The translations under genes and the position numbers were made by a program. Shown here piece by piece: positions 1-9,977 of a stretch of DNA of 49,671 nt. Numbering within the stretch: the stretch's first letter is position 1; each line of letters starts with the position of its first letter. The notes under the pieces were generated by a model that saw nothing but the letters and a program-made list of their open reading frames with translations, made no database searches and was not told the origin of the DNA. This DNA comes from Bacteroidetes bacterium ADurb.Bin234 (GTDB taxonomy: Bacteria > Bacteroidota > Bacteroidia > Bacteroidales > WCHB1-69): the NCBI GenBank assembly GCA_002069895.1, contig MWCE01000046.1:1-49671 (forward strand), in the 5' to 3' direction.

Positions 1-1300
1 ACCCGACCTTTACGCTATTAAATAATTTCTTTATGTAATAATTTAGCAGCTTTTTCCATTTCTTTTCGATGGTAAGCCAACTGCCTTTCGATTTTAATAG
101 GATCATAAATACTTACTAAATTAGGATTATAAGGTTTCTTTTCTTTAAGCATATTCCAAATTATAACAAGGATTTTCCTTCCTATTGCAACTATTGCTTT
201 TTTATTCGACTTACGCATTGCCAATCGGTGATATTTTTCCATAAAGTATGATCCTTTTGTTCTTGATGCTCCCCAAGCTACCTGTATTAATATTGCTCGC
301 AGATATTTATTCCCTTTGGTAATAGCTTTGCTTTTAAATTTTCCGGCACTTTCATCGTTTCTTGGACGCAATCCCGCCCATCCGGTTAACTTTCCGCTAT
401 TTTCAAAAACACTCATATCTGCTCCGGTTTCGGCTATTAAGCAAATAGCTGATATTTTACTAACCCCAGGTAGAGTTTGAAGCAAAAGCATTTCATCTTT
501 ATAATGCTTATTACAAATGCGTTCCATCTCTTTAATGCATTCTAAGGTTTGTCTTTCAAGAATGTCATAAATCTCTTTTTCCCATTTCAAAGCTTTACGA
601 TGATGATCCATTATATACCCCGTCAAGGCTTCCCGTAATTTACCACTTTGCTTGTTTTTAGTGTTGCCATATACTAGTTTCACTAAATTATCAGGATTAG
701 TTTCTCCTTTTATTAATGCTTCTATTACGATAATCACACTCTTATTGGTTAATTTACTCACACAACTACTAATACGTATATTTGCCATAACCATGATTCT
801 ATCCATTTTTGTAAGTAATTTACACTTATCCTGTTGCATCCTCATGTATTTACGACTGTAGAAACGTAATTCCTGTATGGTTGAATTTGGAATCATGCTT
901 CCTCTTATTAAGTTCTTATGTAAAAGAGTGGCTATCCATTGTGCATCTTTGATATCACTTTTTCTGCCAGGCATCTGTTTTATTAAAAATGGATTTACTA
1001 ATGTTAATTCAAAACCCATTTCCATTAAGATATTCCAAACAGGTATCCAATAAATACTTGTGCTTTCCATAGCAACTTGATTTACTCCTTCTGTCATCAA
1101 ATACTCTCCCATTTCATATATAAATCTAGTTGTGGAATCAAAAACTTTTACTTCCGATGATGTTTTTCCGTCATATATTGAACAAAAAATACTATCTTTG
1201 TGCACATCTAAACCGCATACTTTCATAATTGTAATGTATTAAAAATTAGACATAAAATAAATTAAAATTGAGACGTACCTTAATGGTTAAGCTCGCTGCA
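1..1300 (-). mobile_element. IS110-family insertion sequence (partial view; element boundaries not determinable from this window)
   Basis: Contains the IS110-type recombinase ORF at 18-1226. Only 17 nt lie beyond its stop before the window edge. The upstream boundary must lie left of ~1344, because 1344-1388 is shared with an unrelated promoter at 25716-25760. Confidence 0.45.
18..1226 (-). CDS. IS110-family transposase/recombinase (DEDD RuvC-like N-domain plus Transposase_20-type C-domain)
   Basis: 402-aa ORF. The N-terminus MKVCGLDVHKDS is typical of the family. The C-terminal half has LPGVSKISAICLIAETG (HhH-like) and RNDESAGKFKSKAITKGNKYLR (conserved Ser region). Confidence 0.9.
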   Translation of the reverse strand: MKVCGLDVHKDSIFCSIYDGKTSSEVKVFDSTTRFIYEMGEYLMTEGVNQVAMESTSIYWIPVWNILMEMGFELTLVNPFLIKQMPGRKSDIKDAQWIATLLHKNLIRGSMIPNSTIQELRFYSRKYMRMQQDKCKLLTKMDRIMVMANIRISSCVSKLTNKSVIIVIEALIKGETNPDNLVKLVYGNTKNKQSGKLREALTGYIMDHHRKALKWEKEIYDILERQTLECIKEMERICNKHYKDEMLLLQTLPGVSKISAICLIAETGADMSVFENSGKLTGWAGLRPRNDESAGKFKSKAITKGNKYLRAILIQVAWGASRTKGSYFMEKYHRLAMRKSNKKAIVAIGRKILVIIWNMLKEKKPYNPNLVSIYDPIKIERQLAYHRKEMEKAAKLLHKEII

Positions 1301-2680: not shown

Positions 2681-4216
2681 ATGGGCGTTATTATTCGACA
2701 AAGTATTAAAGGAACAATTGTTAACTACGTAGGTGCTTTTATCGGTTTTTTAATAACCTTTTTTATCACCACCAAATTTCTGACAGCCGAAGAAATAGGC
2801 TTGGTAAGGATATTGCTGGAAGCCGGTTTGTTATTTTGTGCTTTATCACAATTGGGCATTAGCTCTTCGGGCATTCGGTTCTATCCATATTTCAAAGACG
2901 AAAGTAAAAAGGACAACGGTTTTTTCTTTTGGACTTTGTTGATTCCTTTTATAGGATTTTTGATAGTTAGCTTGTTGTATATCATTTTAAAAACACCCCT
3001 CACCTCTTATTTTTCAAACAATTCGGCTTTATTTGTCGACTATTATTATTTTGTGATTCCTCTGGGTTTTTTCTTCTTATATATGGTGGTGTTCGAAACC
3101 AATGCCAATGTGCTTATGCGCATTGTAGTGCCTAAATTCATTCGCGAAATCGGCATACGTGTTTTAACCATAACGATTTATTTATTATATGCTTTTCGTT
3201 TCATTAATCTGGATTGGTTTGTAGTTTTGTTGGTAGCTGTTTACGGCATAGCCACTTTATTGAATATTACTTATTTATTCAGCTTCAAAAAAATCTCCTT
3301 ACGTCCCGATTATTCATTTATCACCAAACCCTTACGTAAATCGTTTTTGCAATACACTTCTTTTTTAGTCTTGGCGGCGATAAGCGGAAGCATCATGGGA
3401 AAAATGGATGTTTTCATTGTAAGCGGTATGTTAGGATTGGAAGACACGGGTATTTATTCCATTGCCTTCTACATTGCTATTATTGTTGAGATCCCTTTCC
3501 GTTCATTGGTGGCCATTTCCCTTCCAGAAATATCGCAAAGCATTAAAAACAATGACATTAATCATACAAATTCCCTTTGCAAACGGGTTTCTTTACATCA
3601 ATTATTGGTTGCCTGCTTCATCTTTTTATTGATATGGATAAACATCGATTTTGTGTTTGACTTATTGCCAAACGGACATATTTACGCAGCTGGCAAATGG
3701 GTGGTGTTGTTTATCGGACTTTCTCGCTTAATCGACAGCTCTTTCGGCGTAGGTTTATCGGTATTAAATTTCTCGAAATATTATTATTATTCCTTGTTAT
3801 TCACCTTCTCTTTGGTGTTGTTAACCATATTGGGAAATCTATATTTCATTCCAATGCTCGGAATAACCGGAGCTTCATTGGCCATGTTTTTATCCTATTT
3901 TGTTTATATAGCCGCTTTACTGGTATTTTTGCAAGGGAAGCTTAAAGTGAGTCCGCTTTCTTATAATCAATTAAAAATTCTTGCCGTTGCCGCTTGGATG
4001 ATACTTTTAAGCTGGGGATGGAAACACACTCTCACTCCATGGATTTTCAATTTAAACCTTCAAGCGGTTGTCTCACTTTTTATAAATGCGGCAGGTAAAA
4101 CTTTTATCGCTTTGGGTAGCGGTTTGATATTGGTGTATGTACTGCATATTTCGGAAGATGTTAACAGCCTTGCACGTAAATACCTTGCCAAAATCGGAAT
4201 ACGGATTAAAGCATAA
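2681..4216 (+). CDS. MOP-superfamily oligosaccharide/polysaccharide flippase (Wzx/MurJ-like)
   Basis: 511 aa with about 14 hydrophobic helices throughout. Architecture is typical of polysaccharide biosynthesis/flippase proteins. Confidence 0.7.
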   Translation: MGVIIRQSIKGTIVNYVGAFIGFLITFFITTKFLTAEEIGLVRILLEAGLLFCALSQLGISSSGIRFYPYFKDESKKDNGFFFWTLLIPFIGFLIVSLLYIILKTPLTSYFSNNSALFVDYYYFVIPLGFFFLYMVVFETNANVLMRIVVPKFIREIGIRVLTITIYLLYAFRFINLDWFVVLLVAVYGIATLLNITYLFSFKKISLRPDYSFITKPLRKSFLQYTSFLVLAAISGSIMGKMDVFIVSGMLGLEDTGIYSIAFYIAIIVEIPFRSLVAISLPEISQSIKNNDINHTNSLCKRVSLHQLLVACFIFLLIWINIDFVFDLLPNGHIYAAGKWVVLFIGLSRLIDSSFGVGLSVLNFSKYYYYSLLFTFSLVLLTILGNLYFIPMLGITGASLAMFLSYFVYIAALLVFLQGKLKVSPLSYNQLKILAVAAWMILLSWGWKHTLTPWIFNLNLQAVVSLFINAAGKTFIALGSGLILVYVLHISEDVNSLARKYLAKIGIRIKA

Positions 4217-4406
4217 GACCACTATTGTTTGATAAGAGTTACAAAAAATTTCGCTTCGCTCAGAATGACAGTCTCAAACTTTGTATAGGGAAAAATATCC
4301 TTCGTTTATGAAATTTTTGACATCTCCTCAATTTCACGCTTTAAAAATTAATTAATAAGCCTTGTTTTGCACAGAAGGGGGACTTCCCTAAATTAAGACC
4401 TTATGC

Positions 4407-4495
4407 AATTCAAATCTCTCCTTATAAATTTGAATTTTCTAAGGTGAAAATTGGAATGCTCACGGTAGAAAATTCAAGGGAACGAATGAAAATTG
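4407..4495. repeat. 9-bp inverted repeat (4407-4415/4428-4436) followed by GAAAATTS motifs at 4432-4439 (inverted), 4446-4453, 4468-4475 and 4488-4495
   Basis: Read directly: AATTCAAAT...ATTTGAATT, and three direct GAAAATT(G/C) copies spaced 22 and 20 bp apart. Confidence 0.6.
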
Positions 4496-4559
4496 AAATA
4501 AGACGGCACAAAATAAAAATCCATACTAAGCCAAACAGAAAAGTAAATATCTTTTTTAT

Positions 4560-5066
4560 TTAAAAATATTTTTCTTTCAATTCATTAATACTCAAAACTT
4601 CAATAGAAGGAAGGTTGTTAAGTTTTTTATTGATGTTATGCCGGGCTTCTTCTTTATAGAGAAATTCATTATTAAAAATAAATAAAGACACATTGTGCAC
4701 CGTAATGCCACCGCCGAATAGTAAATTTTTAGAACATTTTATTTTATTTGTAAAATCTCCTTGTGACAAACTGTTTATTCCACGGCAATTTAACTTAAAG
4801 TCAACTAATAACATTTTAGTATTCTCTTTATCCTTCAATCCCAAAACCATATCTACGGATTTAGTCTTTTTTGTTATGTCTTTATCTTTACAGTTTTCTT
4901 TTACTTTATCCAATTTTAAACCGACCTCTTCATTAAACGGGCGGTTTATTTTAGATCGATTTTCGGGGTTGGTTTCTTCATAAATAATATTATTTATTTT
5001 TTCAACACATGTTGGATATGCTATTGAAAGTGGATGTAATCTTGTTGTTTCTTCACAATATTTCAT
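4560..5066 (-). CDS. hypothetical 168-aa protein, possible small PD-(D/E)xK nuclease; coupled to the upstream ATPase
   Basis: ATG lies 3 nt after the ATPase stop codon. Motif SVD72MVLG...MLLVD89FK91L sits in hydrophobic strand-like contexts. I recognise no family. Confidence 0.55.
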   Translation of the reverse strand: MKYCEETTRLHPLSIAYPTCVEKINNIIYEETNPENRSKINRPFNEEVGLKLDKVKENCKDKDITKKTKSVDMVLGLKDKENTKMLLVDFKLNCRGINSLSQGDFTNKIKCSKNLLFGGGITVHNVSLFIFNNEFLYKEEARHNINKKLNNLPSIEVLSINELKEKYF

Positions 5067-5069
5067 AAA

Positions 5070-6440
5070 CTATTCTTCGGTTGCTCCGTATTCATTTATT
5101 TTATCTAACGATAGATTAAAAGAATTAAATATTTGTTCTATATCCGTTTTAGTATGCCGGTATTCAAATTTATATTTATTTATTTCTTTGGCAAAATAAA
5201 AATTAAGCGAATTATTGTTTCTGCCTAACTCTTTTTTTGAAATATATTTGATTGCACTAACCATATCGGGACTATGACTTCCAATAAGAAAATTAACTTT
5301 TAGTTCTTTGTGTAACAATACTATTAATCGCGCATATTGAACAATCCATTCGGGATGCAGATGTGTTTCGGGTTCATCAATTATCAATAATGTTTTATCA
5401 TCTAAAAAACCATTATTATATAGAATCTGTAAAGCACTGAATGATTTTAAGCCTGTTGCACAATTAAATAAATCAAAAACATGTCCATCATTTCTTTTAT
5501 ATTTAAAGGTTTCACTATTGCTATCGTATGATGTTTCTCCGTCAATAATTTCTTCTTTTAACAAATCACTTATTTTATTCTTATTTTTACCTTTTTTTGG
5601 ACTATTTTCCAATAACGAATTTAAATCAACCCAATGAGGAACATCCGTGTCTTCAATATTTTCAACTCCAATAATCATTGGAGTATCTATATATGCAACT
5701 TTATTTATGGTTAAAAAATTAGATAATTTTTTAGCTGTTCTATTGGTCATCAATACACCTAACTCTTTTACATTGTAGTTTTTAACATTAATATTTTCCG
5801 TGAAATAGTTTTCTATTATATTATCTAATATCTTAATTGACCTTTCATCAATTAAAATATATGCTTTATTAAATTTATCTTTAACAATTTTTTTTATTTT
5901 ATCTAATAAAATTGATATATTAATATTTTCACTATTCTTCTCTTTATCAAATTCTTCTTTAAAAAACCTTGTGATTCTATAAAATCGTTGATGAAAGTTT
6001 TTATCATTTTCAATGTTAATAGATAATTCTTCATATTCTTTTTTTAATATATCAAATATTAATAATATTCTACTTTCTTGTTCTTTCAAATCTAAGGTAG
6101 AATTATAATTAAAAAATTGATAAAATTTATATTTTAAATCATTTCTTTCATATTTAAGTTCTTTCTTGTTTCCAGAATCAGATTTTCGGTAATATTCTAA
6201 TTCATGTACTAATTCATCCATAAAACGTCTTATTGGCCACAATTCATTAAAAATATTTTCGCCAATAATTCTATTAAAGTCAATAGATGTTTTAATTGTT
6301 CGATAAAGCAATTTTGAAATAGTACTTTTTCCACAACCATTAATTCCTGCTATCACTGTAATCCCATTTAGAATTATATCAGCTGTTTTAATAGCTCTAA
6401 AATCTTTTATTTCTATAGATAGTTTTGGAATGTTTTCCAT
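5070..6440 (-). CDS. ABC-type (AAA_15/AAA_21-like) ATPase with long helical insert between Walker A and Walker B
   Basis: Walker A GINGCGKST (nt 6321-6347). Signature-like ATGLKSFSAL. Walker B LLIIDEPETHLHPEW (nt 5352-5390). GSHSP H-loop region. Start set at MENIPKLSIEIKDFRAIK (ATG 6440), the usual N-terminus for this family; the ORF extends to 6524. Confidence 0.8.
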   Translation of the reverse strand: MENIPKLSIEIKDFRAIKTADIILNGITVIAGINGCGKSTISKLLYRTIKTSIDFNRIIGENIFNELWPIRRFMDELVHELEYYRKSDSGNKKELKYERNDLKYKFYQFFNYNSTLDLKEQESRILLIFDILKKEYEELSINIENDKNFHQRFYRITRFFKEEFDKEKNSENINISILLDKIKKIVKDKFNKAYILIDERSIKILDNIIENYFTENINVKNYNVKELGVLMTNRTAKKLSNFLTINKVAYIDTPMIIGVENIEDTDVPHWVDLNSLLENSPKKGKNKNKISDLLKEEIIDGETSYDSNSETFKYKRNDGHVFDLFNCATGLKSFSALQILYNNGFLDDKTLLIIDEPETHLHPEWIVQYARLIVLLHKELKVNFLIGSHSPDMVSAIKYISKKELGRNNNSLNFYFAKEINKYKFEYRHTKTDIEQIFNSFNLSLDKINEYGATEE

Positions 6441-6710
6441 AATACTTTGATTCTTTATTTTATAGAACAATAGTTCTTTGTCTGCAATTTTCAACTGCAA
6501 AAATATACAAAATTTATTAAACAAGATTAGTTTATGCTGTTTTTATTTCTTATATATAACTATTTGATTAAATCTTTGAATAGATTCATATATAGTAAGA
6601 TTTTTTATTATTTTTGCCATCATAAAAATATTAACAGAATAATAAACCCGAAAAAGTAGAAAAACCAAAACCTTCGGCAAAGTAATCATCGGCATAAAAA
6701 ACATATAATT

Positions 6711-7610
6711 ATGGATATAAAAGAATTACAACAATTGATAATCGACCATCAATCCGATATCGCTTTTGTTATCGGACAGGGAGTTCACAACTATCCTTAT
6801 CTTACTAAAAATCTTTCTTGGAATGAACTGCTCAAACAGTTATGGCAAGAACTTAACTTTCAAAACGCTGATCGTCTTCGGAAAGTAACAAATATGTATG
6901 ATTTCATTCATAATCCAGATCTTATCAATGATAAAAAAACCAACATCAATAAGGAGATAGCTCGTTTAATGAAAAAAAGAGAGCCAAAATTGGTTCATCA
7001 ATACATAGTGAGTAGAATAAAAAAACTCAATGCACCCATTCTTACCACCATTTTCGACGAAACACTCTCAAAAACTTTTAATTACAAACGTTTTATCTTG
7101 GACCAAAAGAGTTTTAACGCTTACTATCCTTGGACGGTTTATCATGCCGAAAGCCCTTTAAGCGATCCGCTCCAAGGATTCGGCATTTGGTATATAAACG
7201 GAATGATACACTATCCTTCAAGTCTTATTTATAGCAAGCAACAATGTTATAAATTGACTAATAGGTTTTTATCTTTAATTGATTCTTTAGATCAAGAAGA
7301 TTGTTTTAATAAACCAAATAACATTGTTTTAAATAGTTGGATTAATATACTTTTCAACAAATCTCTCTTTGTTTTCGGCATGGGTAATGAAATTCAAGAT
7401 GATTTTTTATCTTTTATTTTGTATGCCAGAGCAAGTTATTATAAATGTTTTCCTGAAAAGAAACATAAGAGTTGGTATGTTTGTCATGCTTTATCTCCTA
7501 TAGCCGAAGAAAACACTGTGCGTTCATTTAAAAAAAAGGATTTCGAAATTATTGAATTAAATAGCACTAAAGATGTGTATGAAAATTTGTGGTTGGACTT
7601 AAAGCTGTAA
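6711..7610 (+). CDS. stand-alone SIR2_2-like protein, with catalytic Asn/His positions apparently substituted
   Basis: Motif order matches ThsA-type SIR2. FVIGQGVH...LSWNELLKQL corresponds to FAGAGLS...SWAKLL. ILTTIFDETL corresponds to TTNYD. WYINGMIHYPSSLIYSKQQCY corresponds to YKMHGD...DDY. LFVFGMGNEIQDDFLSFIL corresponds to FLFVGFSFTDPNLDYIL. Confidence 0.6.
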   Translation: MDIKELQQLIIDHQSDIAFVIGQGVHNYPYLTKNLSWNELLKQLWQELNFQNADRLRKVTNMYDFIHNPDLINDKKTNINKEIARLMKKREPKLVHQYIVSRIKKLNAPILTTIFDETLSKTFNYKRFILDQKSFNAYYPWTVYHAESPLSDPLQGFGIWYINGMIHYPSSLIYSKQQCYKLTNRFLSLIDSLDQEDCFNKPNNIVLNSWINILFNKSLFVFGMGNEIQDDFLSFILYARASYYKCFPEKKHKSWYVCHALSPIAEENTVRSFKKKDFEIIELNSTKDVYENLWLDLKL

Positions 7611-7650
7611 CATATTCTTTCCTTATGATTATTGTTAATTGTTATTTTCT

Positions 7651-7658
7651 TACTTTTG
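7651..7658 (+). promoter_or_regulatory. -7 promoter box TACTTTTG for zupT
   Basis: TAnnTTTG match 31 nt upstream of the ATG at 7689. Confidence 0.4.
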
Positions 7659-7688
7659 CGTTGGAAACTTATCGCAAAATGTATTATT

Positions 7689-8492
7689 ATGGATCATACT
7701 GTTTTATTAGCCTTTATATTTACCTTATTGGCAGGATTGGCTACCGGATTGGGTGGAATTATAGCTGTTGTTGCCACGCGCACCAATAAGTCGTTCTTTT
7801 CTTTTTCGCTGGGATTATCGGCCGGAGTGATGATTTATGTTTCTTTTGTTGAGTTGTTTAAAGAAGCTGAAATCATCTTAGGACAACAGCTGGGTGAGAA
7901 ACCGGGTCTTATTTTAACGGTTCTCTGTTTTTTCCTGGGCATGCTTTTGGTAGGTTTGATCGACAAATTGGTTCCATCCCATGAAAACCCACATGAAATC
8001 CGAACGGTTGAAGATATGAACCGTCTTCCGTCGAAGAATCAGAAGTTTATGAAGATGGGTATTGTCACTGCATTAGCTGTGGCGATACATAATTTTCCCG
8101 AAGGGATAGCCACTTTTATGGCTGTAATCGAAAGTCCCGCCTTAGGTATAATGATAGCCGTTGCCATTGCCATTCATAACATACCCGAAGGCATTGCCAT
8201 TGCCGTTCCTATTTATCATGCCACGGGAAATAAAAAGCGAGCTTTGCGTTTATCATTCCTATCGGGTTTAGCCGAGCCCTTAGGAGCCGTATTAGCTTAT
8301 TTGTTTTTAACTCCTTTTATGTCGCCCATACTGTTGGGATGTGTGTTTGCGGTTATTGCAGGTATTATGGTTTATATTTCGTTCGATGAATTGCTGCCTG
8401 CTTCACGTGAATACGGGGAGCACCATATTTCTATTTACGGCTTGATTTCGGGTATGGCCATTATGGCATTGAGTTTGATTTTATTGATATAA
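7689..8492 (+). CDS. zupT: ZIP-family zinc transporter ZupT
   Basis: Two HNFPEG/HNIPEG motifs and a multi-pass membrane profile. Start at MDHTVLLAF (ATG 7689), downstream of the promoter box. Confidence 0.9.
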   Translation: MDHTVLLAFIFTLLAGLATGLGGIIAVVATRTNKSFFSFSLGLSAGVMIYVSFVELFKEAEIILGQQLGEKPGLILTVLCFFLGMLLVGLIDKLVPSHENPHEIRTVEDMNRLPSKNQKFMKMGIVTALAVAIHNFPEGIATFMAVIESPALGIMIAVAIAIHNIPEGIAIAVPIYHATGNKKRALRLSFLSGLAEPLGAVLAYLFLTPFMSPILLGCVFAVIAGIMVYISFDELLPASREYGEHHISIYGLISGMAIMALSLILLI

Positions 8493-8642: not shown

Positions 8643-9977
8643 TTAATCGACGGCGTTGGTTAAAAAAGGCGGGTTTTCCATCATACCGTTGGATCCTACC
8701 CTTATATTCGACGTTTCTTGTTCGAAAAACATACCCCCGTGTTGTTTCATTTTCATCCTTTCATAAGGTGTGAGTTTTAAATATTCATCGATTTGTTCCG
8801 GGGTCATTTCTCTTAAATTGTTATTATCGATAATGCCGCCATCACCCATTTTGCCTTTATTTGAAGTGTTATCCTTTGTTTCGGGTGTTGTTTGGTTATC
8901 AACAGCTTGATTTATTTGAATTTTTTTTATGTTATCGTCGGAAGCGTCGGTGAATTCTTCTCTGGAAAAATCGGTTGTTTTTTCGTGTAATCCGGTAGCT
9001 ATAACGGTAACCCGTATTTGTTGTCCCAATGAATCGTCGACACCGTGTCCCCAAATAAGTTTCTTTTTCATGGAGCAGGTTTTGTTTTCGAGGTGTTCTG
9101 TAATGATGTCGAGTTCTTCGATGGTAGCTTCGCATTCATTTCCATAAGAAATAAAGAATAGAACATTTTCGGCACCATAGATAGTATTTTTGTCTAGGAG
9201 CGGACTGTCGGTTGCGGCTTCAACAGCTTCTTGCGCCCTGTTTTCCCCTTGTGCACTACCCGAACCGATGATGGCGGTACCACTTTTTTTCAAGACGGTT
9301 TTCACATCATTGAAGTCGACGTTGATAACACCGTGAACGGTTATCAGTTCGGCTATACTCTTAGCTGCTATCAACAACACATCGTCCACCTTAGCAAAAG
9401 CATTCGAGAGTTTCAAATCGGGATAAAAGCTTTTTAAGGATTCGTTTTTAATTACAATGAGGGCATCGACATTCTGACGTAATTCACTAATGCCTTCATC
9501 GGCAACTTTAAATTTCCCTGTCTGTTCGAATTTAAAAGGATAGGTAACAATGGCAACGGTAAGAATGCCGAGGTCGCGGGCGATATCCGCCACGATAGGA
9601 GAAGCCCCCGTACCGGTTCCGCCACCCATACCGGCAGTGATAAAGAGCATTTTAGTACCTTCTAAAGCTTTTTTAATTTGTTCAGCACTATCTAAGGCCG
9701 CTTGACGTGCCACTTCGGGGTCGGCACCGGCTCCCAGTCCGCCATCGCCTAATTGGATTTTAAGAGGTATGGGACTGTTGACAAGGGCTTGCTTGTCAGT
9801 ATTACATATCATAAAATCAACATCCTTAATTCCCATATTATACATATGCTTAACGGCATTACCCCCACCGCCTCCTACTCCCATAACTTTTATAATGGAT
9901 AACTGAGGTTGTTGTTTGGTATCAACAATGGGTGTTATTTGTCCCAAAACTTCGTCATCTAAATTAATATCTATCAT
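8643..9977 (-). CDS. ftsZ: cell division protein FtsZ
   Basis: GVGGGGGNAV and GMGGGTGTGASP tubulin signature. C-terminal PPFL peptide. Confidence 0.97.
   Translation of the reverse strand: MIDINLDDEVLGQITPIVDTKQQPQLSIIKVMGVGGGGGNAVKHMYNMGIKDVDFMICNTDKQALVNSPIPLKIQLGDGGLGAGADPEVARQAALDSAEQIKKALEGTKMLFITAGMGGGTGTGASPIVADIARDLGILTVAIVTYPFKFEQTGKFKVADEGISELRQNVDALIVIKNESLKSFYPDLKLSNAFAKVDDVLLIAAKSIAELITVHGVINVDFNDVKTVLKKSGTAIIGSGSAQGENRAQEAVEAATDSPLLDKNTIYGAENVLFFISYGNECEATIEELDIITEHLENKTCSMKKKLIWGHGVDDSLGQQIRVTVIATGLHEKTTDFSREEFTDASDDNIKKIQINQAVDNQTTPETKDNTSNKGKMGDGGIIDNNNLREMTPEQIDEYLKLTPYERMKMKQHGGMFFEQETSNIRVGSNGMMENPPFLTNAVD

What the first reader, a model, noticed from the sequence alone, without database searches (positions are those of the whole stretch)
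4560..7610. AT-rich three-gene islet: split-Walker ABC ATPase + coupled 168-aa PD-(D/E)xK-like protein, divergent from a degenerate SIR2-like gene - candidate undescribed conflict/anti-phage system
A ~3.4-kb block sits between conserved housekeeping genes (flippase ending at 4216; zupT promoter at 7651), and its composition departs sharply from its surroundings. My hand counts of single 60-nt lines give 7/60 G+C at 5881-5940, 11/60 at 6061-6120 and 12/60 at 7261-7320. The flanks give 18/60 at 3001-3060, 27/60 at 8101-8160 and 33/60 at 9601-9660. The block encodes three proteins. (i) A 456-aa ATPase has Walker A GINGCGKST and, ~310 residues later, ATGLKSFSAL, Walker B LLIIDEPETHLHPEW and GSHSP. 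This is the AAA_15/AAA_21 ABC layout used by defence ATPases such as Septu PtuA, PARIS AriA, the Gabija GajA N-domain, AbiL and ABC-3C systems. (ii) Three nt downstream lies a 168-aa protein of no family I recognise, with a D...DxK arrangement compatible with a restriction-endonuclease fold. (iii) Across a ~270-bp divergent promoter region lies a 299-aa stand-alone SIR2_2-like protein that appears to lack the canonical catalytic Asn/His. ATPase-plus-nuclease and SIR2 effectors are both recurrent defence modules, but I cannot place this trio (tiny effector, no HNH/TOPRIM/DUF4435, short degenerate SIR2) in a named system. No integrase, tRNA or obvious target-site duplication flanks it.
Basis: partly seen in the sequence, partly recalled or inferred. 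Interest (0 to 1): 0.85.

Follow-up and report, generated by a model that had tools for sequence, protein, structure and literature searches.

The report
ATPase–nuclease defence pair plus stray SIR2
A low-GC islet beside the cell-division genes carries a conserved two-gene cassette, an ABC ATPase with a small nuclease-like partner from an unnamed protein family, that is most likely an anti-phage system of a known general type; the neighbouring degenerate SIR2-like gene is an unrelated passenger.

Summary
All three ORFs, the ATPase motifs and all six hand GC counts check out, and the islet is the lowest-GC 3.4 kb of the window (27.0% against 35.4%).

The ATPase (5070-6440, -) and the 168-aa gene (4560-5066, -) form a strictly conserved two-gene cassette. 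In 14 other loci, down to 23% effector identity, the small gene sits 0-6 nt after, or overlapping, a 449-460-aa AAA_15 ATPase. Flanks differ each time, and one copy lies in a prophage next to its repressor.

The small protein belongs to an unnamed family of 282 clusters at 50% identity, with no Pfam, PADLOC, NCBIfam or PHROG model. It has invariant D72, D/E89-x-K/R91 and K108. Its confident AF2 model (pLDDT 91) has restriction-endonuclease topology but no significant structural match.

The ATPase's best named hit is PADLOC HEC-02A. HEC-02 is an experimentally validated ABC ATPase plus NERD nuclease defence system. The effector shows no detectable homology to HEC-02B.

The 299-aa gene is a strongly derived member of a stand-alone SIR2_2-like Bacteroidota family (Asn to Ile, His to Asn). 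It never co-occurs with the cassette.

Verdict: a new variant of a known kind, not a three-gene system.

The parts
5070..6440 (-). 456-aa ABC-type ATPase (AAA_15/AAA_21), proposed sensor and regulator of the cassette. Key residues: Walker A K38, signature-like ATGLKSF at 328-334, Walker B D355/E356, H-loop H389. A roughly 200-residue K/N/E-rich insert (about residues 50-270) is encoded by the lowest-GC DNA.
   Evidence: Pfam AAA_15 scores 44.4 bits against a cutoff of 32.1. PADLOC hits: HEC-02A 1.3e-27, NsnB 2.4e-18. PHROG 14430 matches full length at 5e-30. PDB sequence hits are PtuA and OLD. The motifs are invariant in 9 cassette ATPases. BLASTP gives 28% identity to the validated HEC-02A over the C-terminal core.
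4560..5066 (-). 168-aa small partner protein, the proposed PD-(D/E)xK-type nuclease effector. Conserved residues: E31, D53, D72, D89-x-K91, K108, S112.
   Evidence: It is always directly downstream of the ATPase. The family has 282 representatives at E<=1e-3. D72 and K108 are invariant, position 89 is always D or E, and position 91 is always K or R, across 142 sequences. The AF2 model has pLDDT 91.3 and an alpha-beta-beta-beta-alpha-beta order. Weak Foldseek hits are dominated by restriction-type nucleases. No Pfam, PADLOC, NCBIfam or PHROG model matches.
6441..6710 (.). 270-bp divergent intergenic region (21.5% GC) with one Bacteroidota-type -7 box (TAnnTTTG) in each direction: 6498-6505 (-) and 6609-6616 (+).
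   Evidence: The motif is not enriched in the window overall (81 found, 75.7 expected), so these are only candidate promoters.
6711..7610 (+). 299-aa strongly derived member of a stand-alone SIR2_2-like family. It is a neighbour of the ATPase-nuclease cassette, not a component of it.
   Evidence: The family has 72 homologues. 17 of 25 members hit Pfam SIR2_2; the window copy does not. The window copy has Asn114 changed to Ile, the His position is Asn family-wide, and 35 of 78 family-conserved positions are changed. dN/dS is 0.20 against a relative with 91% nucleotide identity. It never co-occurs with the cassette.
4430..4477 (-). Hairpin 83-130 nt downstream of the small gene's stop, a candidate terminator of the two-gene operon.
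   Evidence: Inverted repeat I3. RNA fold of -17.5 kcal/mol with z = -3.8 against shuffles. There is no U-tract, so the assignment is tentative.

Best explanation
The islet holds two independent accessory elements.

(1) A two-gene operon (5070-6440 and 4560-5066, minus strand) encodes an ABC ATPase and a small PD-(D/E)xK-type nuclease. I infer that they act together as an anti-phage or anti-mobile-element system of the ATPase-sensor plus nuclease-effector kind, like HEC-02, PARIS and Septu.

Proposed mechanism, all inferred: the ATPase oligomerises, holds the co-translated nuclease inactive, and senses an infection cue through its enlarged, variable insert. ATP binding or hydrolysis (K38, D355/E356, H389) then licenses or releases the nuclease. 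The nuclease cuts nucleic acid with a metal site formed by D72, D/E89 and K91, possibly with E31 and K108. The result is either destruction of invader DNA or abortive infection.

What is shown: the gene pairing, the motif conservation, the fold topology, the ATPase homology to defence ATPases, and the patchy mobile distribution including a prophage. What is inferred: the defence function, the complex, the substrate and the trigger.

(2) The divergently transcribed 299-aa gene is a separately acquired, strongly derived member of a stand-alone SIR2_2-like Bacteroidota family. It has lost the catalytic Asn and His but is still under purifying selection. It is not part of the cassette.
For: Pairing. 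The small gene sits 0-6 nt after, or overlapping, a 449-460-aa AAA_15 ATPase in every one of 14 other loci. These cover about 10 independent contexts and effector identities of 23-93%.

Mobility and accessory nature.
- Flanks differ in every locus: RuvX/THDPS, RibD_C, TonB receptor, ferredoxin, DAG kinase/sulfatase, lepA.
- One copy lies next to a HEPN/MNT toxin-antitoxin pair.
- One copy lies inside a prophage, directly after the S24 CI-like repressor and before a D12 methyltransferase.
- A gut phage carries a distant version with the same effector motifs.
- The ATPase matches PHROG 14430 over its full length.
- One copy is disrupted (L012).
- The window's cassette genes have the lowest GC in the window.

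ATPase.
- Best PADLOC hits are HEC-02A, NsnB, GajA, Old, PD-T4-4_A, PtuA and AriA.
- PDB sequence hits are PtuA and OLD.
- Catalytic motifs are invariant.
- HEC-02 (ABC ATPase plus NERD PD-(D/E)xK) protects E. coli from phage and needs both genes (bioRxiv 10.1101/2024.01.29.577857).

Effector.
- D72, D/E89, K/R91 and K108 are conserved in 100% of 142 sequences.
- The AF2 model (pLDDT 91.3) places D72 at the start of one strand and D/E-x-K at the end of the next strand of a hairpin.
- Top Foldseek hits are weak, but they are FokI, N.BspD6I, Shedu, BamHI, Cap4, MUS81, Mrr-like, TnsA and endonuclease I.

Selection. dN/dS is 0.24 for the ATPase and 0.38 for the effector.

Independence of the SIR2-like gene.
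Against: - No experiment exists for this cassette.
- No significant structural or sequence match ties the effector to any characterised nuclease. The best Foldseek E-values are 0.05 (PDB) and 0.018 (BFVD), and hmmsearch against PDB finds nothing.
- K91 is Arg in 23% of family members, which is unusual for a catalytic Lys.
- The effector shows no detectable homology to the validated HEC-02B (hhalign probability 0.16%).
- The HEC-02A match covers mainly the C-terminal half of the ATPase.
- Most close relatives of the cassette sit among housekeeping genes rather than in recognisable defence islands.
- Close relatives were not found in IMG/VR.
- An empty-site comparison could not be made.
Confidence: 0.62

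Rival explanations
1. One reading: all three genes form one three-component conflict system, with the ATPase, the nuclease and a degenerate SIR2 acting as sensor or regulator from a shared divergent promoter region.
For: The genes are adjacent with a 270-bp divergent intergenic region, and all three have low GC. The derived SIR2-like gene is under purifying selection (dN/dS 0.20) despite losing its catalytic residues, so it does something. Another member of its family sits just downstream of an OLD-like ABC ATPase-TOPRIM gene (L007).
Against: None of the 14 other cassette loci has a homologue of the 299-aa gene within the available flanks, and none of the 5 loci of the SIR2-like family has the cassette. 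The family's neighbours vary: AraC regulators, other SIR2_2 genes, an integrase. The two close-relative contigs (L022, L023) do not bridge the junction, so even lineage-level linkage is untested.
Confidence: 0.08
2. The two-gene cassette is a selfish addiction or toxin-antitoxin-like module, or a mobile-element maintenance or exclusion function, rather than a dedicated anti-phage system. The nuclease would be the toxin and the ATPase its controller.
For: It occurs as solitary islets at many unrelated chromosomal sites without other defence genes. It lies next to a HEPN/MNT toxin-antitoxin pair in one lineage. It has a prophage location. Pfam AAA_21 is annotated 'putative AbiEii toxin, type IV TA system'.
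Against: No recombinase, tRNA or repeats flank the islet to move it. Its nearest characterised relative, HEC-02, gives phage protection when expressed in E. coli. The distinction from abortive-infection defence is partly semantic.
Confidence: 0.15
3. The pair is a housekeeping DNA repair or recombination factor (an SMC/RecF/SbcC-like ATPase with a nuclease) that happens to be AT-rich.
For: The ATPase gives weak SMC_N, Rad50 and RecF-type N-terminal matches. It lies next to core genes, the dcw cluster.
Against: The distribution is sporadic with a different genomic position in every lineage, and includes prophage and phage copies and a disrupted copy. GC is 8-11 points below the host's. The effector family is rare, with 8 close homologues among 5.8 billion proteins. 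dN/dS is 2.5-4 times that of the adjacent zupT.
Confidence: 0.04
4. The small protein is not an enzyme. It would be an inactive adaptor or specificity subunit with a degenerate restriction-endonuclease-like fold, and the ATPase would act alone, for example by occluding or remodelling a target.
For: There is no significant match to any nuclease. K91 is Arg in 23% of members. The protein is only 168 aa with no recognisable DNA-binding module.
Against: The acidic residues D72 and D/E89, and K108, are conserved in all 142 highly diverged sequences (mean column identity 26%). This is the pattern expected of an active site, not a scaffold.
Confidence: 0.1

Closest known systems
HEC-02 (PADLOC 'Hma-embedded candidate 02'; Payne et al., bioRxiv 10.1101/2024.01.29.577857). 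HEC-02A is an ABC ATPase and HEC-02B a NERD-type PD-(D/E)xK nuclease.
   Same: It is a two-gene operon with the ATPase first and a roughly 169-aa PD-(D/E)xK-type protein immediately downstream. The window ATPase's best PADLOC hit is HEC-02A (1.3e-27). BLASTP gives 28% identity to the validated Dickeya HEC-02A over the Walker B/signature half, plus the Walker A region. By eye, HEC-02B shows the same order and spacing of D...D...ExK...K-x-x-x-[ST] as the window protein; this is my inference from the sequences.
   Different: The window ATPase is 114 residues longer (456 against 342 aa) through a large insert. The effector gives no HEC-02B, NERD or other hit. hhalign probability to HEC-02B is 0.16%. 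Only 2 of 142 family members touch a HEC-02B model, at E about 6e-4. PADLOC-DB v2 rules would not call this locus HEC-02.
PARIS (AriA ABC ATPase plus AriB TOPRIM nuclease) and Septu or retron I-A (PtuA ABC ATPase plus PtuB HNH nuclease)
   Same: The logic is the same: an AAA_15-type ABC ATPase partnered with a separate small nuclease effector, often carried by a prophage. The ATPase hits AriA and PtuA models at 1e-11 to 1e-12 and solved PtuA structures at 5e-6.
   Different: The effector fold differs: restriction-endonuclease-like rather than TOPRIM/DUF4435 or HNH, with no hits to either. The ATPase similarity is confined to the core motifs.
Menshen (NsnABC)
   Same: NsnB is the only PADLOC model in the table of the 25 best hits shown whose match spans nearly the whole ATPase (residues 8-437, E 2.4e-18).
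   Different: Menshen needs NsnA (ParB/DUF262 sensor) and NsnC (inactive PIN plus nuclease) (PMC12065111). Neither is present here. The cassette has two genes in all loci.
Defence-type SIR2_2 proteins (ThsA SIR2 domain, DSR1/DSR2, PADLOC PDC-S25). This applies to the 299-aa gene only.
   Same: The family shares the ordered motifs GxG...SW..LL, TTN[FY]D, x[HN]G and F.FG.[GS]...[DE].[NE] with ThsA. 17 of 25 members hit Pfam SIR2_2. A few hit PDC-S25, Dsr1 or ThsA weakly.
   Different: These are stand-alone proteins of about 298 aa with no sensor or effector fusion. The catalytic His is Asn in most of the family. The window copy also has Asn changed to Ile and 45% of the family-conserved positions changed, and hits no SIR2 model itself.

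Membership tests
ABC ATPase, AAA_15/AAA_21 group (OLD/PtuA/AriA/GajA-like) | Pfam AAA_15 match above the gathering score. | tested here: met
   44.4 bits against a cutoff of 32.1, spanning residues 8-394. AAA_21 scores 36.1 against 27.
ABC ATPase, AAA_15/AAA_21 group (OLD/PtuA/AriA/GajA-like) | Split nucleotide-binding site: an N-terminal Walker A and, after a long insert, a signature-like motif, Walker B (hhhhDEPE), D-loop and H-loop. | tested here: met
   GINGCGKST at 32, ATGLKSF at 328, LLIIDEPE at 351 and SH at 388-389. All are invariant in 9 cassette ATPases and in HEC-02A.
HEC-02 (PADLOC) | HEC-02A-type ATPase. | tested here: inconclusive
   It is the best PADLOC hit (PDLC04214, 1.3e-27), but the best stretch covers only residues 270-404. 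Identity to the validated HEC-02A is 28%, and the window protein is 114 aa longer.
HEC-02 (PADLOC) | HEC-02B NERD-domain PD-(D/E)xK partner. | tested here: not met
   No PADLOC or Pfam hit for the window protein at E<=1. hhalign of the 142-sequence profile against Dickeya HEC-02B gives probability 0.16%. Only 2 of 142 family members hit HEC-02B marginally.
HEC-02 (PADLOC) | Two adjacent co-oriented genes, both needed for phage defence. | not testable with these tools
   Adjacency is met in 15 of 15 loci. The phenotype needs an experiment.
PD-(D/E)xK (restriction-endonuclease-like) superfamily | D at the start of one core strand and (D/E)xK on the next strand of the hairpin, both conserved. | tested here: met
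   D72 is conserved in 142 of 142 sequences. Position 89 is E in 117 and D in 25. Position 91 is K in 109 and R in 33. In the model the strands are 73-79 and 82-91.
PD-(D/E)xK (restriction-endonuclease-like) superfamily | Alpha-beta-beta-beta-alpha-beta core fold with significant similarity to a known member. | tested here: inconclusive
   The secondary-structure order fits. Foldseek finds no hit at E<=1e-3. The best hits are FokI (E 0.05, TM 0.31) and a Bacillus phage JL protein (E 0.018, TM 0.41). The weak hits are nevertheless mostly restriction-type nucleases.
Septu / PARIS / Gabija / Menshen | The system-specific partner: PtuB HNH; AriB TOPRIM/DUF4435; TOPRIM fused to the ATPase plus GajB helicase; NsnA ParB/DUF262 plus NsnC. 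| tested here: not met
   The small protein and the 299-aa protein have no such Pfam or PADLOC hits. The ATPase has no TOPRIM domain. No further genes lie in the islet.
SIR2_2 (PF13289), for the 299-aa gene | Match to the SIR2_2 profile. | tested here: inconclusive
   The window copy has no hit at E<=1. 17 of 25 homologues do, the best at 6.8e-7. The window copy scores 372 bits against the family HMM, compared with 500-532 bits for typical members.
SIR2_2 (PF13289), for the 299-aa gene | Catalytic Asn (TTNYD) and His (xHG) of NAD-consuming SIR2 enzymes. | tested here: not met
   The window copy has TTIFDE and YING. The family consensus has TTNFDE but also ING; His is kept only in P0077 and P0080. 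The correspondence to ThsA motifs was read from the alignment.

The most novel reading that the evidence does not exclude
In this lineage the strongly derived SIR2-like protein has been recruited as a third, regulatory or sensing subunit of the divergently transcribed ATPase-nuclease cassette. It has lost its catalytic Asn and His and 45% of family-conserved positions, yet evolves at dN/dS 0.20. That would make a lineage-specific three-part system in which a dead NADase fold reads a nucleotide signal. Separately, and more probably (about 0.6), the two-gene cassette is a functional, widespread, still unnamed anti-phage system with a new minimal nuclease family.
Probability: 0.08. Interest if true: 0.7.

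Novelty: new variant of a known kind. Interest (0 to 1): 0.45.

Why it matters
If the cassette is active, it adds a widespread family to the growing class of ABC ATPase plus nuclease immune systems. The family has 282 clusters at 50% identity and occurs in Bacteroidota, Melainabacteria and phages, but it is still unannotated. Its members currently escape the models tested here (PADLOC-DB v2, Pfam, NCBIfam, PHROGs).

The effector is a roughly 165-aa nuclease-like protein with no significant structural neighbour among solved structures. The ATPase carries an unusually large variable insert that is a natural candidate for trigger recognition. The pair could therefore help show how this class senses infection.

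The work also corrects a tempting over-reading. Adjacency of defence-like genes in one genome did not survive a co-occurrence test.

The SIR2-like family, which has Asn in place of the catalytic His, is a minor separate puzzle.

Tried and rejected
- The first AF2 run on the small protein used only 9 sequences and gave pLDDT 52.9, which is unusable. It was repeated with 142 sequences.
- hmmsearch of the small-protein profile and of the SIR2-like family profile against PDB sequences found nothing. phmmer of family member P0063 against PDB found nothing.
- hhalign of the SIR2-like family against a neighbouring 554-aa SIR2_2 protein from L005 found no relation. The SIR2 link therefore rests on Pfam hits of family members and on motif order.
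- hhalign, hmmsearch and phmmer of the small family against HEC-02B found no homology.
- The metagenome scan with ZupT, meant to find an empty site, returned 80 loci at only 58-67% identity. None had ftsZ or the flippase adjacent, so the insertion test was impossible.
The scans with A1 and A4 found no close relatives.
- tblastn of the small protein against GenBank phages found no match.
- The sigma-70 promoter and terminator scan was uninformative: counts were at the shuffle level, and the consensus is wrong for Bacteroidota.
- Krishnan et al. 2020, the ABC ATPase classification, could not be read because it is not held. I could not check whether that survey already lists this clade.
- TOPRIM/DUF4276/RloB-type identity for the small protein was considered and rejected. 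There are no hits, and the model shows beta-hairpin D...ExK geometry rather than E...DxD.

Full report
**Observation**

- Alignment with eight homologous ATPases shows that the true ATPase start is the ATG at 6440, giving 456 aa and the N-terminus M-E-N-I-P-K-L.
- The ATPase stop and the small gene's ATG are separated by 3 nt (TAG TTT ATG).
- The quoted motifs are present at residues 32 (GINGCGKST), 328 (ATGLKSFSAL), 351 (LLIIDEPETHLHPEW) and 387 (GSHSP).
- All six hand GC counts are exact.
- The block 4217-7650 is 27.0% GC against 35.4% for the window. It is the minimum of all 3.4-kb windows, about 3.5 SD below the mean. The ATPase (24.1%) and the small gene (28.0%) are the two lowest-GC genes of 36.
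- The flanks are NAD kinase, a Polysacc_synt flippase, a ZIP zinc transporter, FtsZ and FtsA, followed by a run of further ORFs on the same strand as far as about 23150. I did not scan those, but by position they look like the rest of the dcw (cell-division and cell-wall) cluster.
- The window has no tRNA, no Rfam match and no direct repeats bracketing the islet.
- The only mobility gene nearby is an IS110-family transposase at 18-1226.

**The ATPase**
- It passes Pfam AAA_15 and AAA_21.
- Against PADLOC its best hits are HEC-02A (1.3e-27, mainly residues 270-404), NsnB of Menshen (2.4e-18, nearly full length) and HEC-02B (model PDLC04146, 3e-18). Below these come GajA, Old, PD-T4-4_A, PtuA and AriA at about 1e-12.
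- PHROG 14430, of unknown function, matches it over its full length at 5e-30.
- Among solved structures, only PtuA and an OLD nuclease match, and only on the core motifs.
- Walker A, the signature-like ATG[LV]KSF, Walker B DEPE and the SH of the H-loop are invariant across nine cassette ATPases, so the enzyme looks catalytically competent.
- Compared with the validated 342-aa HEC-02A, it has about 114 extra residues in a K/N/E-rich insert between Walker A and the C-terminal half. This insert is encoded by the most AT-rich DNA.

**The small protein**
- It has no match in Pfam, PADLOC, NCBIfam or PHROGs.
- A word-indexed search of 5.8 billion proteins found only 8 relatives.
- An exhaustive HMMER profile search of 1.84 billion cluster representatives found 282 at E<=1e-3 and 127 at E<=1e-10. 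Nearly all are 155-185 aa.
- Members that carry any name are 'hypothetical protein'. Source taxa include Bacteroidota, Tannerellaceae and Melainabacteria.
- In a 142-sequence alignment with mean column identity 26%, D72 and K108 are invariant. Position 89 is always D or E and position 91 always K or R. Y3, T8, H11, E31, D53, S/T112 and R147 are strongly conserved.
- With this alignment AlphaFold2 gives a confident model (pLDDT 91.3, pTM 0.87). Its secondary-structure order is helix 24-31, strand 48-51, strands 73-79 and 82-91 forming a hairpin, helix 102-116, strand 122-131, helix 139-149 and strand 155-159. D72 lies at the start of one hairpin strand and D/E89-x-K91 at the end of the next. 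This is the restriction-endonuclease (PD-(D/E)xK) core arrangement.
- Foldseek finds no significant neighbour in the PDB or BFVD (best E-values 0.05 and 0.018). The weak hits are mostly nucleases of that superfamily: FokI, N.BspD6I, Shedu, BamHI, Cap4, MUS81, Mrr-like, TnsA and endonuclease I.
- I therefore accept 'PD-(D/E)xK-like' as the best reading. It is supported by motif and topology but not by a significant match.

**Is the pair a unit?**

Yes.
- In close relatives (43-93% effector identity: L001, L002, the P0007 contig, L008-L012, L023) the small gene directly follows a 449-460-aa AAA_15 ATPase, separated by 3-6 nt.
- In distant relatives (23-33% identity: L014-L020) it does the same, separated by a few nt or overlapping.
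- The flanking genes differ in every lineage: RuvX/THDPS, RibD_C, TonB receptor, ferredoxin, DAG kinase/sulfatase and lepA.
- One lineage has the pair next to a HEPN/MNT toxin-antitoxin pair.
- One has it inside a prophage, immediately after the S24 CI-type repressor and before a D12 methyltransferase.
- A human-gut phage (MT835532) has a 436-aa AAA_15 ATPase with an overlapping 190-aa ORF. That ORF aligns to the family profile across the D...D...ExK...K..S core (E 2.6e-5 as a single-target test).
- One copy (L012) is disrupted.
- Against a relative with 94.6% nucleotide identity, dN/dS is 0.24 for the ATPase and 0.38 for the effector, compared with 0.095 for zupT.
- The pattern is tight coupling, patchy distribution, variable location, prophage carriage, low GC and occasional decay. 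That is the signature of an accessory conflict module, not of housekeeping.

**Relation to named systems**

HEC-02, from Payne et al., is an ABC ATPase plus a NERD-type PD-(D/E)xK protein. It protected E. coli against phages and needed both genes (bioRxiv 10.1101/2024.01.29.577857). Its sequences come from their Table S2.
- The window ATPase is 28% identical to HEC-02A over 135 C-terminal residues, plus the Walker A region.
- HEC-02B is also 169 aa. By eye it has the same ordered D...D...ExK...K-x-x-x-[ST] constellation with similar spacing. That correspondence is my inference.
- No method detects homology between the two effectors. hhalign gives a probability of 0.16%, and hmmsearch and phmmer give nothing. 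Only 2 of 142 family members brush a HEC-02B model, at E about 6e-4.
- The cassette therefore works like HEC-02, and like PARIS and Septu in logic. It fails the membership test on the effector, and PADLOC-DB v2 would not call it.
- Menshen, Septu, PARIS and Gabija are excluded because their defining partners are absent.

**The 299-aa gene**
- It has 72 homologues, mostly about 298-aa proteins of Bacteroidota.
- The window copy hits no SIR2 model. However, 17 of 25 relatives hit Pfam SIR2_2 (best 6.8e-7), and a few hit PDC-S25, Dsr1 or ThsA weakly.
- The family's ordered motifs are IGNGIN...SW..LL, LTTNFDE, GIWYINGM and FIFGLGLEENE. They parallel the ThsA motifs GAGLS...SW..LL, TTNYD, KxHGD and FVGFSFxDPN.
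- The catalytic His position is Asn in most of the family. The window copy also has Asn114 changed to Ile.
- The window copy has changed 35 of the 78 positions that are at least 90% conserved in the family. Other full-length members have changed 0-16.
- It is not a decaying pseudogene. Against a relative with 91% nucleotide identity that keeps TTIFDE and the junction with zupT, dN/dS is 0.20.
- Its family occurs in varied, defence-flavoured contexts: beside large SIR2_2 proteins, beside an OLD-like ATPase-TOPRIM protein and an integrase, and beside AraC regulators.
- A homologue is absent from all 14 other cassette loci, and the cassette is absent from the 5 family loci examined. The trio is therefore a chance neighbourhood of two accessory elements, not a conserved system.

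**Mechanism (inferred)**

By analogy with PARIS, Septu and HEC-02, I propose the following steps.
1. The ATPase oligomer binds the co-translated nuclease and keeps it inactive.
2. The large variable insert recognises an infection cue.
3. The ATP cycle (K38, D355/E356, H389) releases or activates the nuclease.
4. The nuclease cleaves nucleic acid at a metal site formed by D72 and D/E89, with K91 and/or K108.

Whether the target is invader DNA or a host molecule, which would mean abortive infection, is unknown.

**Minor features**
- Candidate Bacteroidota -7 boxes (TAnnTTTG) lie at 6498-6505 (-) and 6609-6616 (+) in the divergent spacer, but the motif is not enriched overall.
- A stable hairpin at 4430-4477 could terminate the operon.

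**Limits**
- There is no experiment.
- The effector has no significant structural neighbour.
- K91 is Arg in 23% of members.
- Most close relatives of the cassette are solitary islets rather than parts of defence islands.
- No empty-site comparison was possible.
- The Krishnan 2020 ABC ATPase survey could not be consulted.

**Verdict**

The finding is a new variant of a known kind: an ABC ATPase plus nuclease defence cassette with an unannotated effector family and an enlarged ATPase insert. It lies next to an unrelated, strongly derived SIR2-like gene. Interest is moderate (0.45).

Noticed in passing
window 18-1226 (-): IS110/IS116/IS902-family transposase (Pfam DEDD_Tnp_IS110 plus Transposase_20), 3.3 kb from the islet. 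It is the only mobility gene found near the islet.
   Followed up: partly
window 4430-4477: Near-perfect 23-nt inverted repeat in the 343-bp spacer between the flippase and the small gene. RNA fold is -17.5 kcal/mol, z = -3.8, with no U-tract. It may be a bidirectional terminator.
   Followed up: partly
L022 against window 6856-8342: On the same relative's contig, the SIR2-like gene has dS 0.15 while the adjacent zupT has dS 0.48. Either composition constrains synonymous sites in the AT-rich gene, or the islet has been exchanged between relatives more recently than the core gene diverged.
   Followed up: no
alignment A2 (family of window 6711-7610); P0077 and P0080: Across this stand-alone SIR2_2-like family the position of the catalytic His is Asn (WYING). 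His is kept only in a deep branch with a roughly 120-aa insertion. This suggests the whole family is not a conventional NADase.
   Followed up: partly
L007 387-3101; L004 6001-11834: Members of the SIR2-like family sit directly downstream of an OLD-like AAA_15/TOPRIM protein near a Tet_JBP gene and an integrase (L007). Others sit upstream of an overlapping 346-aa gene and a 1287-aa SIR2_2 protein (L004-L006). These may be operons of their own.
   Followed up: no
L019 5882-11171; L020: A prophage-like region carries the cassette between the S24 CI-type repressor and a 477-aa unknown gene plus a D12 adenine methyltransferase. L017 also has a D12 methyltransferase 2.6 kb downstream. This hints at a recurrent link with methyltransferases.
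   Followed up: no
L021 5437-7312 (phage MT835532.1, human faeces): An unannotated gut phage encodes a 436-aa AAA_15 ATPase with an overlapping 190-aa ORF. The ORF carries the same D...D...ExK...K..S core as the small-protein family.
   Followed up: partly
L012 3988-5884: In a Chitinophagia MAG the cassette is broken: the ATPase matches in two separate pieces and the small gene is truncated. This looks like a decaying copy.
   Followed up: no
window 6543-6704 (-): A 53-aa ORF lies inside the divergent intergenic region and has no family hit. It is probably not a gene.
   Followed up: partly
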